DNA of 8,326 nucleotides from a virus (Duplodnaviria; Heunggongvirae; Uroviricota; Caudoviricetes), in IMG/VR virus record IMGVR_UViG_3300039384_000072, one strand, 5' to 3'. The notes under the pieces are model-generated. The model searched no databases. It had not been told where the DNA came from and saw only the letters and a program-made list of their open reading frames with translations. Every line of letters starts with the position of its first letter. Within the stretch, counting starts at the first letter, position 1. Positions 1,734-7,136 of the stretch are shown piece after piece. The position numbers and the translations under genes are program-made.

Positions 1734-3197
1734 ATGCCAAAGTTAAGAATATATTTTTCAGATTTTTTTAATGTATCTCCTGAAAAAATAAAAGAGTATG
1801 GTGCATTTAATATTTCTCTGATTAATGATTTGCCGCTATTTATTGATCCGTTTTTGTTATTTAATAATGAGAAATATATAGATTTACATCAGGGGATAAT
1901 TAAATATGTTTCTTTCTTAAGAGATCGTTCTCAGAATGGAGAATTAAATCGAGGTTTAATCAAAAGTTGGTTTTTATTTCCTGAGGTAAAACAAAACTGG
2001 CTGGGTTATAGCATGGTTGGGAACGGTGGGAGTGGATTGGGTATTGATTTTGCAAATTCCTTAATCACCTCATTTTCAAGTATTTTAAAAAACTTTGGTA
2101 AAGAGGAAATTACTGAGGGAAGTCATCTTGAAAAATTGTGTTTGATTAAGGAGGGGGTAGGAAAGGATAGTATTAGTGATTTTACCACTAATTTAATTAA
2201 ATCGTTTTTACTGAAGTATACTGAAGATTTCTCTAAAGAAAATATAGATAGTAAATATCTCTCTGAACACTTAGTACCAAAAGTTGAATTTAATTACGAA
2301 ACCAGAAGTTGGATGAGTAAAAAATTCACGTTGCCAACATATGCTGGAGATTATGTTCTTTTAACTCCGAGAGATATACTCACAAAAGATGAAACTTGGA
2401 TTAACAGAAATGAAATGATCGAGGACTTTAGAGATATATGTGAAAGTATCCCTAATGATCAATTGCGTGGACAATTGTCTGATTATTTCAATAGATGTCT
2501 CCCAGACTCTCCAAAGAAAAAGGAACGAGAGTCCGCTGCCGATTTGACAATTAAGAATTACCCGAGTTTTATTGATTATTATATTCGTTATAAAGAACAA
2601 AACTCTGGGGGTGCTAAACGTGATAGTAATGCAAAGGTTAGCGAAACTGAGCAAAGGTATATTGAAGCTGTCCAACTTTTGGTTGATACAATCTTTAATA
2701 AACATCAGGAGTTCTTTAGTTCAAAGGATGATACTTTCGAAGAGGCCTATAAGCGAGTCTGTTATCTTAAACAGGTAATAGAAAATAATGATGGCTATAA
2801 AGTATTCTATTTGAATGGTGTCCCAATTAAGCGTGAAGCTGATTTGCAGTTAATGTTTAGATTAACATGGTTTGCTAGTATTTCTGATGTCAATAGTGAA
2901 GTAAATAATGGTCGTGGTCCCGTTGACTACAAAATATCGAGAGGTTCGAAAGATAAAACATTGGTTGAATTCAAACTGGCTAGTAACTCCAAGCTTAAAC
3001 AGAATCTGGCAAATCAGGTTAAAGTGTATGAGGCGGCAAATGAAACAAAAAAATCAATAAAGGTTATTTTGTATTTTACTGATCGAGAATTGTCTGGATT
3101 GTTTAAGACTTTCAAAGAACTTGGGATTAAAGAAGGTAAGGATTTAGTCTTGATTGATGCTAGGCCTAATAAGGTTTCTGCATCGAATGTCAAATAA
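1734..3197 (+). CDS. Hypothetical 487-aa protein with a C-terminal PD-(D/E)xK / RecB-like nuclease signature; candidate single-gene anti-phage defence protein
   Basis: Strong RBS AGGAGG (1723-1728) 5 nt before ATG 1734; long uninterrupted ORF. By eye it is markedly AT-rich compared with flanking genes. C-terminal motifs read from the translation: acidic residue in READ, then GRGPVD (D398), VEFK (E412, K414), then QVKVY (Q428...Y432), the order and spacing expected for RecB/Cas4-like PD-(D/E)xK nucleases. The N-terminal ~380 aa have no motif I can assign. Followed by a hairpin plus T-run. Confidence 0.8.
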   Translation: MPKLRIYFSDFFNVSPEKIKEYGAFNISLINDLPLFIDPFLLFNNEKYIDLHQGIIKYVSFLRDRSQNGELNRGLIKSWFLFPEVKQNWLGYSMVGNGGSGLGIDFANSLITSFSSILKNFGKEEITEGSHLEKLCLIKEGVGKDSISDFTTNLIKSFLLKYTEDFSKENIDSKYLSEHLVPKVEFNYETRSWMSKKFTLPTYAGDYVLLTPRDILTKDETWINRNEMIEDFRDICESIPNDQLRGQLSDYFNRCLPDSPKKKERESAADLTIKNYPSFIDYYIRYKEQNSGGAKRDSNAKVSETEQRYIEAVQLLVDTIFNKHQEFFSSKDDTFEEAYKRVCYLKQVIENNDGYKVFYLNGVPIKREADLQLMFRLTWFASISDVNSEVNNGRGPVDYKISRGSKDKTLVEFKLASNSKLKQNLANQVKVYEAANETKKSIKVILYFTDRELSGLFKTFKELGIKEGKDLVLIDARPNKVSASNVK

Positions 3198-5891: not shown

Positions 5892-5993
5892 AATCCCCCC
5901 TGTTGCGTCTGCCGAAAATATTCACAAAATAAAGCGCTACCCGAAGCCGGACGGACTTATCCGGTGCTGTATGGACATTAACGAGGTAGCCCG

Positions 5994-6260
5994 ATGCAAG
6001 CTGTTTTTTCTTCCCCGTCTCCCGCCCCTGTGACGCCACTGATGCCGCTGCCGGACATCACACAGGAGCGTTTTTTACGTCTTCCGGAAGTGATGCACCT
6101 GTGCGGCCTGTCACGCTCGACCATCTACGAACTCATCCGTAAGGGGGAATTTCCGCCGCAGGTGAGTCTTGGCGGTAAAAATGTGGCCTGGCTGCACTCT
6201 GAAGTCACCGCATGGATGGCCGGCCGCATTGCCGGACGCAAACGGGGGTACGACGCATGA
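5994..6260 (+). CDS. vis: Vis/AlpA-family small DNA-binding protein (excision/regulatory), 88 aa
   Basis: RBS GAGGT (5983-5987) 6 nt before ATG 5994. The C-terminal half [44 protein letters not shown] is the AlpA/Vis-type helix-turn-helix signature. The 88-aa length matches my memory of P4 Vis. Confidence 0.75.
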
Positions 6261-6295
6261 TGATGCCTGTTCTGCAAAAAGTCCCTTTTTCTGGC

Positions 6296-6325
6296 TTGCC
6301 TTTTTCCGGCATTTGCGGATATAGT
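6296..6325 (+). promoter_or_regulatory. Candidate early/immunity promoter (PLE analogue): -35 TTGCCT (6296-6301), 18-bp spacer, -10 TATAGT (6320-6325)
   Basis: Read directly; lies just downstream of vis and upstream of the structured leader region. Confidence 0.35.
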
Positions 6326-6356
6326 TTTTCCGCTGTCGCAAAATCGGCAGCCGGGC

Positions 6357-6647
6357 GTGGAAACCCGAGCAATCTAACGGCGACATATGACGCGCCATGC
6401 GTCTTTTTTTGTGTCGCAATCAACGCCACAGAGCGCCAGATTATGGTGTGGTGTGTGGTCAGTCGAGCAGATGGAACTCCGTGCATCCTGCCCGCGTCCG
6501 CTCATTATGCCGCAGAGTCAATGGTAGCTCAGGCGGGGCAGCCTCCGGGCTGGCCGGTATCCGTTAGAGCCGGTATTTCCACCCCCGTCTGGGCTATCGC
6601 CATCGAGCGTGGAAACTCCGGCGATAGCGTAACCTGCTATCTAACGG
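6357..6647 (+). ncRNA. Candidate P4-type RNA immunity region: transcribed leader with seqA-like (6357-6380), seqB-like (6561-6582) and seqC-like (6609-6647) elements
   Basis: Read directly: GTGGAAAC...ATCTAACGG occurs at 6357-6380 and again at 6609-6647. The element CCGTTAGA...TTTCCAC at 6561-6582 is complementary to both ends of each copy. Additional local hairpins, e.g. gctatcgcc (6593-6601) pairing with ggcgatagc (6620-6628). The precise RNA ends cannot be determined from sequence. Confidence 0.35.
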
Positions 6648-6658
6648 AGGCTGCCATC

Positions 6659-6856
6659 ATGGCTACAACCCTTACCCCTTCACACCCTGAATTTGTCTTT
6701 GTGTTTGCGGCTGTCCGTCGCGCAGACCGTCATCCCCGTATCTGCATGCTTCGCACCGTCGCCGGTGATGAACGCAGTGCCCGCCGTTCCCTTGTCCGTG
6801 ACTATGTGCTCTCCCTTGCTGCCCGTCTGCCGGTGGTGGAGGTGTCCCGTGCGTAA
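6659..6856 (+). CDS. Small protein, 65 aa, possibly Icd-like host cell division inhibitor / Ash-region protein of P4-like elements
   Basis: RBS GGAGG (6646-6650) 8 nt before ATG 6659. The frame is open from 6212, so in-frame ATGs at 6521 and 6443 are possible alternative starts. Family assignment rests on position within the immunity region and a vague sequence recollection, so it is uncertain. Confidence 0.45.
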
Positions 6857-7136
6857 TAAAAAAGCCCCTCAGACCGTCTCAGCGCGTCATGACGCCCGTG
6901 AACACCTCAGCATTGAGGCTTACCATAAGCTCAACCGCGCCAGCGCCGTATCCCAGTTTGTTGGGGGTGATTTGATTCACCGTGAACTCTCCGGCCTGCA
7001 TCAGCTCTACATTCCGCATATTTTCAGCTACCTGAATGAAGATATTGATTTTGTGCTGAATGAGCTGAAAGCCAAAGGCCTGTGCCGCGATTTTCTCGCC
7101 CAGCAGAAAGACCGGGGAGACAAGACGCATGTTTGA
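6849..7136 (+). CDS. Hypothetical small protein, about 95 aa, at the position of P4 epsilon (helper derepression protein)
   Basis: The ORF track's 6693..7136 frame has no ATG beyond 6693, and that ATG overlaps the preceding gene. GTG 6849 is preceded by GGAGG (6838-6842) with a 6-nt spacer. The 3' end overlaps the next ORF (ATG 7129, stop 7134-7136), suggesting translational coupling. The epsilon assignment is positional only. Confidence 0.5.

What the first reader, a model, noticed from the sequence alone, without database searches (positions are those of the whole stretch)
6296..6660. Candidate RNA-based immunity locus: a short element complementary to two flanking repeats, the downstream one overlapping an RBS
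Seen in sequence: GTGGAAAC...ATCTAACGG occurs twice (6357-6380 and 6609-6647), and between them CCGTTAGA...TTTCCAC (6561-6582) is complementary to both ends of each copy. This is the logic of the P4 immunity system, in which the small CI RNA (seqB) pairs with seqA and seqC in the nascent leader to cause premature termination. Here the downstream copy ends in ctaacGGAGG, which is the Shine-Dalgarno of the 65-aa ORF at 6659, so pairing would also occlude translation initiation. A plausible promoter (6296-6325) lies just upstream. The open frame through this region is GC-rich with non-protein-like composition, consistent with an RNA element rather than a long protein.
Basis: partly seen in the sequence, partly recalled or inferred. 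Interest (0 to 1): 0.55.

Follow-up and report, generated by a model that had tools for sequence, protein, structure and literature searches.

The report
P4-type RNA immunity locus, variant allele
This is the well-known small-RNA immunity switch of satellite phage P4, sitting in a P4-like prophage of E. coli, with the short pairing sequences changed in concert so that it should no longer cross-react with P4 itself; the kind of system is ordinary and already described.

Summary
The window is a P4-like satellite prophage at tRNA-Leu(CAA) of E. coli. Positions 6255-6870 are 97% identical to the immunity region of phage P4. Rfam places a C4/CI antisense RNA at 6517-6604 (76 bits) and an IsrK-like (seqA) leader with an intrinsic terminator at 6332-6409 (72.5 bits).

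Two short boxes in the CI RNA are CCGTTAGA (6561-6568) and TTTCCAC (6576-6582). They are perfectly complementary to box pairs upstream (seqA, 6357-6363 and 6373-6380) and downstream (seqC, 6609-6615 and 6640-6647). The downstream pair overlaps the Shine-Dalgarno sequence of the 65-aa kil/Icd-like ORF.

Of the 23 differences from P4 in this stretch, 18 fall in these six boxes, and all 18 are compensatory. Across 63 distinct related sequences, pairing is kept in 98-99% of cells, and 12-13 of the 15 pairs show double changes. There are 26 different specificities. The window's allele is predicted to be heteroimmune to P4.

It is kept open in 55 of 58 relatives, although the peptide it would encode is not conserved.

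Novelty is low: a new allele of a known system.

The parts
5994..6260 (+). vis/orf88 homologue (AlpA-family regulator). It lies immediately upstream of the immunity region, as in P4.
   Evidence: Pfam Phage_AlpA, 7e-21. Same position as P4 ORF88.
6296..6325 (+). Promoter equivalent to P4 PLE (TTGCCT-18-TATAGT).
   Evidence: Found by the promoter scan. Identical to P4, and its -10 is the one annotated in X02534. The TTGC and TA(T/C)AGT elements are conserved while the spacer varies in other genera.
6332..6409 (+). Leader RNA (IsrK-like, 'seqA RNA'). It has two hairpins, a single-stranded a box and the intrinsic terminator t1.
   Evidence: Rfam isrK, 72.5 bits against a gathering score of 50. 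c4-a1b1 scores 45.8 against 46.7 at 6319-6371. The hairpins carry compensatory changes.
6357..6363 (+). seqA b box, GTGGAAA, in the loop of hairpin 6352-6367.
   Evidence: Complementary to 6576-6582. 99.8% of cells paired across 63 sequences, and 6 of 7 pairs have double changes.
6373..6380 (+). seqA a box, TCTAACGG, in the single-stranded stretch.
   Evidence: Complementary to 6561-6568. 96.8% paired, and 6 of 8 pairs have double changes.
6389..6409 (+). Intrinsic terminator (P4 t1 equivalent): GACGCG-CCA-CGCGTC followed by T7.
   Evidence: Terminator scan. One stem pair switches G-C to C-G in 10 sequences.
6517..6604 (+). CI RNA (C4 antisense RNA family). It has a long closing stem, hairpin 1, hairpin 2 with the a' box in its loop, and the b' box in the joint. 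The 3' tail reads CCA.
   Evidence: Rfam C4, 76.2 bits against 45. MFE -48.1 kcal/mol, z = -4.4. The closing stem is 100% paired, with 4 compensatory pairs.
6561..6568 (+). seqB a' box, CCGTTAGA, in the loop of hairpin 2.
6576..6582 (+). seqB b' box, TTTCCAC, in the single-stranded joint.
6593..6628 (+). Hairpin that presents the seqC b box in its loop. Its 5' arm is also the 3' strand of the CI closing stem, so the two structures are mutually exclusive.
   Evidence: 9-bp perfect inverted repeat (I14). 99.5% paired, and 6 of 12 pairs are compensatory.
6609..6615 (+). seqC b box, GTGGAAA.
   Evidence: 100% paired with 6576-6582 across 63 sequences.
6640..6648 (+). seqC a box, TCTAACGG(A). It overlaps the first bases of the Shine-Dalgarno GGAGG (6646-6650).
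   Evidence: 98% paired with 6561-6568, and 7 of 8 pairs have double changes. Sequence read.
6659..6856 (+). kil homologue: 65 aa, Icd-like. It is the first gene after the leader.
   Evidence: NCBIfam phage_ICD_like, 76 bits, aa 12-59. Diversity is biased to the third codon position, 0.14/0.13/0.26.
6257..6856 (+). Long frame, 199 aa, in frame with kil. Its ATG overlaps the vis stop (ATGA). This is the P4 'eta' frame and runs through seqA, t1, CI and seqC.
   Evidence: Annotated as a CDS in RefSeq. Open in 55 of 58 distinct leaders, against 1 of 58 for each other frame; indels are multiples of 3 in 54 of 58. There is no codon-position bias upstream of kil. The boxes carry 1 in-frame stop triplet against 30 out-of-frame.
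6849..7136 (+). epsilon (derepression protein). [quoted passage not shown]
   Evidence: Pfam Derepression, 8e-51. P4 gene order.

Best explanation
This is the immunity region of a P4-family satellite prophage, and it should work as P4's does.

A constitutive promoter (6296-6325) transcribes a leader. Part of that transcript is processed into a stable, highly structured CI RNA of about 80 nt (6517-6604). CI exposes two short boxes: a' in a hairpin loop and b' in a single-stranded joint. These boxes pair with the b+a box pair of seqA (6357-6380) and with the b+a box pair of seqC (6609-6648) on newly made leader transcripts.

Pairing at seqA favours termination at the intrinsic terminator t1 (6389-6409), which limits CI's own synthesis. 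Pairing at seqC covers the ribosome-binding site of kil (6659). The untranslated RNA is then terminated prematurely, so epsilon, the primase gene alpha and the rest of the left operon stay silent in the lysogen and in a superinfecting element of the same type.

Transcripts that start further upstream, through vis, can translate the long eta frame across the whole region and so escape the block.

The window's boxes differ from P4's at 6 positions per site. Its CI should therefore repress only elements of its own type.

Shown here: the homology, the RNA family membership, the structures, the three-way complementarity and its covariation, the RBS overlap, and the conserved open frame. Inferred from P4 and P1 genetics, and not tested here: processing, termination, translational repression, and escape of the upstream transcripts.
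For: - Region 5990-6860 is 95.5% identical to P4, with the same gene order: psu, delta, sid, ori, orf88, immunity region, epsilon, orf151, orf106, alpha.
- In the 616-nt alignment with P4, the differences cluster in the six boxes and are compensatory. P4 has GTGAGAA/TTCACAGG pairing with CCTGTGAA/TTCTCAC. The window has GTGGAAA/TCTAACGG pairing with CCGTTAGA/TTTCCAC.
- Rfam C4 scores 76.2 bits and isrK 72.5 bits, both above their gathering scores.
- The literature equates IsrK-like with seqA and C4-like with the CI RNA of P4-like prophages (PMC3632133, PMC4825925).
- Of 72 related loci, 68 are perfectly complementary at all four contacts, in 12 box combinations.
- On 63 distinct sequences, including 26 from other Enterobacterales genera, seqA:seqB is 98.2% paired with 12 of 15 pairs compensatory. 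seqB:seqC is 98.9% paired with 13 of 15 compensatory. Slid controls give 37-50% paired.
- G-U pairs occur at the edges of the boxes. These work only in RNA of the + strand.
- Duplex energy is -17.3 kcal/mol for the cognate pair and -3.3 for window CI against P4 targets.
- kil is Icd-like.
- t1 is found by the scan and is conserved.
Against: - There are no expression data, so the existence, ends and abundance of the small RNA in this strain are unverified.
- The single-sequence MFE fold of the leader differs from the Rfam consensus and is not better than shuffles, z = -0.8.
- A full-length leader x CI duplex energy is not exceptional: 84 of 500 shuffles do as well. The case for seqA therefore rests on covariation, not on energy.
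- Four of 72 loci break the rule. Two are seqA chimeras and two have indels in seqC. This shows either that perfect three-site matching is not obligatory or that some elements are decaying.
- The primary P4 papers on t1, timm, kil and eta could not be read here. Those mechanistic steps rest on my recollection of them.
Confidence: 0.9

Rival explanations
1. IsrK-type activation rather than repression. In Salmonella Gifsy-1, the short terminated leader RNA (6332-6409) acts in trans on the read-through transcript to open a structure and switch ON translation of the downstream small ORF. Here it could also act as a decoy that titrates CI.
For: The leader matches the isrK model at 72.5 bits and ends in the same kind of intrinsic terminator. 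The Gifsy-1 mechanism is documented, and its authors call seqA of P4-like phages a structural homologue of IsrK (PMC4825925). A short seqA-bearing RNA would necessarily be able to bind CI.
Against: The locus is 97% identical to P4, where genetics assign seqA a role in CI-dependent termination. Downstream genes are kil and epsilon, not orf45-anrP. The covariation links seqA to seqB, not to a cis-inhibitory helix near the kil RBS. The one candidate cis helix to the SD shows no covariation.
Confidence: 0.1
2. The region is simply the N-terminal part of a 199-aa Icd-like protein, as RefSeq annotates it. The repeats would reflect protein-level or incidental features, with no RNA function.
For: RefSeq calls one CDS over 6257-6856 and annotates no ncRNA. 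The frame is open in 55 of 58 distinct relatives, and indels are multiples of three.
Against: Upstream of kil, diversity is equal at the three codon positions (0.23/0.24/0.25). Within kil it is third-position biased. The Icd-like domain maps only to the 65-aa ORF. Two Rfam structural models hit above threshold. The inverted boxes co-vary as base pairs, including G-U, which protein coding cannot explain. The frame and the RNAs coexist; the frame does not replace them.
Confidence: 0.03
3. The repeated and inverted boxes are DNA sites for a protein such as Vis, alpha or a repressor, rather than RNA pairing elements.
For: The region lies next to the P4 origin and to a DNA-binding regulator gene. 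Short repeated motifs are typical of operators.
Against: 26 different box sequences occur with an almost unchanged neighbouring protein set. A protein site would not diversify like this while keeping strict Watson-Crick/G-U complementarity between copies in opposite orientation. The boxes also sit in loops and joints of conserved RNA structures.
Confidence: 0.02
4. The match between the repeats is due to chance.
For: The boxes are only 7-9 nt long.
Against: There are 3 occurrences of the 8-mer against 0.13 expected, with 0 of 200 shuffles reaching that. There is three-way covariation over dozens of alleles.
Confidence: 0

Closest known systems
Phage P4 immunity region (PLE, seqA, t1, cI/CI RNA with seqB, seqC, kil/eta)
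   Same: 97% nucleotide identity over 616 nt. Same promoter, same leader hairpins, same terminator, same CI scaffold and same kil. Same position between orf88/vis and epsilon. Same three-site complementarity.
   Different: Each of seqA, seqB and seqC differs at 6 positions, 2 in the b box and 4 in the a box, with all changes compensatory. Predicted cross-pairing with P4 is about -3 kcal/mol against -17 for the cognate pair, which implies a different immunity specificity. The cargo between int and psu also differs: a 487-aa ORF replaces cII/gop/beta.
c4 antisense RNA - icd - ant immunity (immI) of phages P1/P7, and the related N15-type systems
   Same: Same RNA family (Rfam C4, clan CL00128) and the same a'/b' two-box logic with targets upstream (c4-a1b1) and at the RBS of an Icd-like ORF. 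P1-like phages D6 and RCS47 align to window 6518-6698 at about 70%. N15-like phages (phiKO2, PY54) align to 6521-6628 at 77-80%.
   Different: In those phages the controlled downstream gene is an antirepressor. Here it is the satellite's derepression/replication operon (epsilon ... alpha). The host elements are plasmid prophages, not an integrated satellite.
IsrK sRNA / STnc1160 locus of Salmonella Gifsy-1
   Same: The leader matches the isrK covariance model end to end. A C4-like processed RNA lies downstream in both. The Gifsy-1 authors note the homology to seqA (PMC4825925).
   Different: The mechanism described for IsrK is trans-activation of orf45/anrP translation leading to AntQ expression, not immunity by premature termination. 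The gene content downstream is different.

Membership tests
P4-type RNA immunity (CI RNA with seqA/seqB/seqC) | A C4/CI-type structured small RNA is encoded in the leader of the early (left) operon. | tested here: met
   Rfam RF01695, 76.2 bits (GA 45), full length, at 6517-6604. Fold z = -4.4. Closing stem 100% paired with compensatory changes.
P4-type RNA immunity (CI RNA with seqA/seqB/seqC) | seqB is complementary to one site upstream (seqA) and one downstream (seqC) on the same transcript. | tested here: met
   Complementarity is 7+8 nt and 7+9 nt. Covariation gives 98.2% and 98.9% paired, with 12 and 13 of 15 pairs compensatory.
P4-type RNA immunity (CI RNA with seqA/seqB/seqC) | A promoter (PLE) lies directly upstream of seqA, and an intrinsic terminator (t1) lies between seqA and cI. 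| tested here: met
   Promoter and terminator scans. Identical to P4 and to its annotated -10. Conserved in other genera. Activity was not tested.
P4-type RNA immunity (CI RNA with seqA/seqB/seqC) | seqC overlaps the translation start region of kil, a 65-codon Icd-like ORF. | tested here: met
   a box at 6640-6648, SD at 6646-6650, ATG at 6659. NCBIfam phage_ICD_like, 76 bits.
P4-type RNA immunity (CI RNA with seqA/seqB/seqC) | The locus sits in a P4-like satellite between vis/orf88 and epsilon-alpha. | tested here: met
   Pfam hits for int, Psu, Ogr_Delta, AlpA, Derepression and DUF5375. RefSeq context with Sid and primase. P4 map.
P4-type RNA immunity (CI RNA with seqA/seqB/seqC) | CI RNA is made by processing of the leader (RNase P, PNPase) and accumulates in lysogens. 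| not testable with these tools
   Only indirect hints: a tRNA-like closing stem followed by CCA at 6600-6602.
P4-type RNA immunity (CI RNA with seqA/seqB/seqC) | CI-dependent premature termination and superinfection immunity. | not testable with these tools
   Needs reporter fusions or superinfection assays.
Rfam isrK (RF01394) / c4-a1b1 (RF03163) target-leader RNAs | Two 5' hairpins with the b box in the second loop, a single-stranded a box, and a terminator. | tested here: met
   isrK 72.5 bits (GA 50). c4-a1b1 45.8 bits, just under its GA of 46.7, E = 2e-10.
IsrK-type trans-activation (Gifsy-1) | Downstream orf45-anrP antirepressor operon, and a cis-inhibitory helix at the RBS that the sRNA opens. 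| tested here: not met
   The downstream genes are kil and epsilon. The only long-range helix to the SD (6537-6547 with 6645-6655) has no covariation support.

The most novel reading that the evidence does not exclude
The two boxes may act as an independently assorting, two-part address code that has diversified under selection for mutual non-recognition among competing satellites.

- There are 26 seqB specificities in 63 distinct sequences.
- In E. coli elements, 9 of the 12 combinations of three b alleles and four a alleles are seen with perfect three-site matching.
- Natural seqA chimeras exist.
- Every allele avoids stop codons in the overlapping eta frame.

This would make P4-like satellites a large natural library of orthogonal RNA repressor/target pairs. 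It would also be an example of RNA-RNA specificity evolving under a simultaneous 'keep the frame translatable' constraint. The large P4-like surveys I could read (PMC8628076, PMC9122126) do not treat the immunity RNA.
Probability: 0.45. Interest if true: 0.4.

Novelty: new member of a known kind. Interest (0 to 1): 0.2.

Why it matters

There are two practical points. First, RefSeq annotates the whole RNA region as one 'Icd-like' CDS and no ncRNA, in hundreds of E. coli genomes. The immunity RNAs of P4-like satellites are therefore invisible in standard annotation. Second, the box alleles give a simple sequence-based way to sort P4-like satellites into predicted immunity groups. That bears on which satellites can coexist or exclude each other in a host. 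It could also supply orthogonal RNA regulators.

Tried and rejected
- **Primary P4 papers.** Sabbattini 1995 (PMC176756) and Forti 1999 are not held in the library. One literature search with generic terms returned only noise. Two others failed on a term-length rule.
- **Full-length duplex energies.** These are dominated by GC-rich stems. Leader x CI is not better than shuffles, with 84 of 500 doing as well. CI x seqC/TIR is (1 of 500), but the predicted duplex unfolds CI unrealistically. I relied on box-level energies and covariation instead.
- **11-nt complement to the kil SD.** The perfect complement between CI hairpin 1 (6537-6547) and the kil SD region (6645-6655) looked like an extra contact. 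It has no covariation beyond conservation: 91.0% paired against 90.9% in shuffles. I rejected it as supported structure.
- **Pfam on kil.** Pfam gives nothing for the 65-aa ORF. NCBIfam does.
- **Identity with retronphage phiR73's allele.** I could not determine whether the window allele equals that of phiR73. No sequence or text for it is available here.
- **Genome-wide pattern scan.** Many hits in Actinobacteria are chance matches of a GC-rich pattern. I excluded them by an nhmmer filter.

Full report
**What the window is**

ARAGORN finds tRNA-Leu(CAA) at 80-164. It is followed by a tyrosine integrase (316-1584) and a 487-aa ORF. On the minus strand come psu, delta and sid. On the plus strand come an 88-aa AlpA-family gene (5994-6260), the region in question, epsilon, a 151-aa ORF and a DUF5375 ORF.

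This is the gene order of satellite phage P4. The whole window is 100% identical to two E. coli chromosomes, where it lies next to the tRNA-Leu gene and is followed by the primase gene alpha. Positions 5990-6860 match P4 at 95.5%.

**The observation**

- TCTAACGG is at 6373-6380 and 6640-6647, and its complement is at 6561-6568. That is three hits against 0.13 expected, and no shuffle out of 200 reaches three.
- GTGGAAA(C) is at 6357 and 6609. Its 7-nt complement TTTCCAC is at 6576-6582.
- The downstream copy runs into GGAGG at 6646-6650, before the ATG at 6659.
- The only sigma-70-like site in the neighbourhood is 6296-6325. Its -10 is the one annotated in the old P4 record.

**What it is**

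Rfam finds a full-length C4 antisense RNA at 6517-6604 (76.2 bits, threshold 45). It also finds a full-length isrK RNA at 6332-6409 (72.5 bits, threshold 50). With looser thresholds, the 'a1,b1 targets of C4' model hits at 6319-6371, 0.9 bit under its threshold.

Two papers state that, in P4-like prophages, the IsrK-like element is seqA and the C4-like element is the CI RNA. They summarise the mechanism as CI pairing with seqA and seqC to cause premature termination (PMC3632133, PMC4825925).

In the Rfam structure, the a' box (CCGUUAGA) lies in the loop of the second hairpin of CI. The b' box (UUUCCAC) lies in the single-stranded joint. In the leader the arrangement is reciprocal: the b box is in a hairpin loop and the a box is single-stranded. 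CI folds strongly on its own, at -48.1 kcal/mol with z = -4.4.

An intrinsic terminator (6389-6403 plus T7) lies between seqA and CI. The 65-aa ORF carries the Icd-like domain (NCBIfam, 76 bits) and is nearly identical to the corresponding P4 frame.

**The strongest evidence: concerted change**

In the 616-column alignment with P4, the two sequences are 97% identical. The differences are concentrated in the six boxes:

| | b box (seqA, seqC) | a box (seqA, seqC) | a' box (seqB) | b' box (seqB) |
|---|---|---|---|---|
| P4 | GTGAGAA | TTCACAGG | CCTGTGAA | TTCTCAC |
| Window | GTGGAAA | TCTAACGG | CCGTTAGA | TTTCCAC |

Every change is compensated at all three sites.

A scan of viral contigs with an invariant piece of the CI scaffold gave 74 loci. 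Of the 72 usable loci, 68 are perfectly complementary at all four contacts, in 12 box combinations. The window's combination occurs 9 times, counting the window itself.

A scan of species-representative genomes added 26 loci from other Enterobacterales, including Edwardsiella, Serratia, Erwinia, Kluyvera, Kosakonia, Phytobacter, Ewingella and Citrobacter. These carry further alleles.

On the resulting alignment of 63 distinct sequences (A2):

- seqA:seqB pairs are 98.2% standard pairs, with double changes at 12 of 15 pairs.
- seqB:seqC pairs are 98.9% standard pairs, with double changes at 13 of 15.
- Sliding the partner by 1-3 columns drops pairing to 37-50%.
- G-U pairs occur at the box edges. 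These fit RNA of the + strand and would be C-A mismatches on the other strand.

The set contains 26 distinct seqB specificities. Cognate box pairing averages -15.9 kcal/mol and non-cognate -5.1. The window's CI against P4's targets gives -3.3, against -17.3 for its own. The element is therefore predicted to be heteroimmune to P4.

In complete E. coli genomes, 883 of 5426 have a megablast match to the 98-nt seqB-seqC stretch. Of these, 49 match at 99% or more, which is this allele.

**Mechanism**

The anatomy fits the P4 model. Which steps are shown and which are inferred is marked below.

- *Shown:* the parts, their structures, the complementarity, the RBS overlap and their conservation.
- *Inferred by homology,* partly from my memory of Sabbattini 1995, Forti 1999 and Briani 2000, which I could not read here: CI is cut out of the leader (RNase P, PNPase). 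CI binding at seqA promotes termination at t1, giving autoregulation. CI binding at seqC blocks kil translation, which exposes the RNA to termination before epsilon and alpha.

The long frame over the region is not meaningless. RefSeq calls it a 199-aa 'Icd-like' CDS, window 6257-6856, with its ATG overlapping the vis stop as ATGA.

- Across 58 distinct leaders this frame has no stop in 55. Each of the other two frames is open in only 1.
- Length differences are multiples of three in 54 of 58.
- The box alleles contain 30 out-of-frame stop triplets but only 1 in-frame.
- Yet diversity is flat across codon positions upstream of kil (0.23/0.24/0.25), while in kil it is third-position biased (0.14/0.13/0.26).

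So the frame is kept translatable, but the peptide is not conserved. That fits the idea, published for P4 as the nested genes kil and eta as I recall it, that translation through the region on transcripts from the upstream promoter is what matters. The region is both RNA genes and a translatable frame.

**Other structures**

A hairpin formed by 6593-6601 with 6620-6628, plus 6605-6607 with 6616-6618, presents the seqC b box in its loop. It uses the 3' strand of the CI closing stem as its 5' arm. It is 99.5% paired, with 6 of 12 pairs compensatory. It is therefore a conserved alternative to the base of the CI stem in the unprocessed transcript.

An 11-nt perfect complement between CI hairpin 1 and the kil SD has no covariation support.

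**Comparison with the known, and novelty**

The closest system is P4's own immunity region; this is a member with a different specificity. The P1/P7 c4-icd-ant system and the N15-type systems share the RNA family and the two-box logic but control an antirepressor. Gifsy-1 IsrK shares the leader fold but is described as an activator.

The same isrK/c4-a1b1 plus C4 tandem is found in loci from Ralstonia, Burkholderia, Pseudomonas, Thiothrix, Rhodanobacter and Desulfobulbaceae. The kind is therefore widespread and catalogued (PMC2864571).

The finding is a correct identification of a known system. What is mildly new is the allele, the breadth of allelic diversity, and the open-frame constraint. 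The recent P4-like surveys I could search do not discuss these.

**Verdict:** new member of a known kind; interest 0.2.

Noticed in passing
window 6257-6856: RefSeq annotates the whole RNA immunity region plus kil as a single 199-aa 'host cell division inhibitor Icd-like protein' and annotates no ncRNA. The same label sits over the seqB-seqC stretch in every listed hit among 883 E. coli genomes. The Icd-like domain itself maps only to the last 65 aa.
   Followed up: yes
window 6257-6658 (frame of kil): The long frame through seqA, t1, CI and seqC is open in 55 of 58 distinct relatives, and indels are multiples of three. The box alleles avoid in-frame stops (1 in-frame against 30 out-of-frame). 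There is no codon-position signature. The frame appears to be kept translatable without conserving the peptide.
   Followed up: yes
window 6593-6628: A conserved, co-varying hairpin carries the seqC b box in its loop. Its 5' arm is also the 3' strand of the CI closing stem, so the two structures are mutually exclusive in the unprocessed transcript. Its role (processing, termination or target presentation) is unknown.
   Followed up: partly
window 6537-6547 and 6645-6655: There is an 11-nt perfect complement between CI hairpin 1 (GGCAGCCTCCG) and the kil Shine-Dalgarno region. No covariation supports it.
   Followed up: yes
L028 and L071 (IMG/VR contigs); also L027, L037: These are natural chimeras. 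In L028 and L071, seqA belongs to a different specificity type from the matched seqB/seqC. L027 and L037 share an unusual seqB (CCTATGAC) with indels in the seqC a box. They could be recombination intermediates or decaying elements.
   Followed up: no
window 1734-3197: A 487-aa ORF occupies the int-psu slot, which is described as a defence hotspot of P4-like satellites (PMC9122126). It replaces P4's cII/gop/beta. It has no Pfam or NCBIfam hit. RefSeq calls it DUF8370. It matches the PADLOC candidate system protein PDC-M36A at 4e-21.
   Followed up: partly
L086, L093, L108, L115, L136, L146, L154, L156, L159, L161, L172: The tandem of an isrK/c4-a1b1 leader followed within about 20-60 nt by a C4 RNA also occurs in Ralstonia, Burkholderia, Pseudomonas, Thiothrix, Rhodanobacter, Desulfobulbaceae and other Proteobacteria. 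In some of these loci Rfam also finds int-alpA RNA hits and tmRNA or tRNA genes, the latter being common integration sites.
   Followed up: partly
L047 and L051 (two contigs of IMG genome 2529293142): Two P4-like immunity regions from the same genome carry the same box combination (GGAAA + TTCACAGG). L005 and L041, from another shared genome, differ in both boxes. Whether co-resident satellites tend to be heteroimmune was not tested.
   Followed up: no
window 6600-6602: The CI closing stem is followed by CCA. Other genera have CACCA or CACCCA at this point. This resembles a tRNA 3' end and fits the reported RNase P processing of C4/CI precursors.
   Followed up: no
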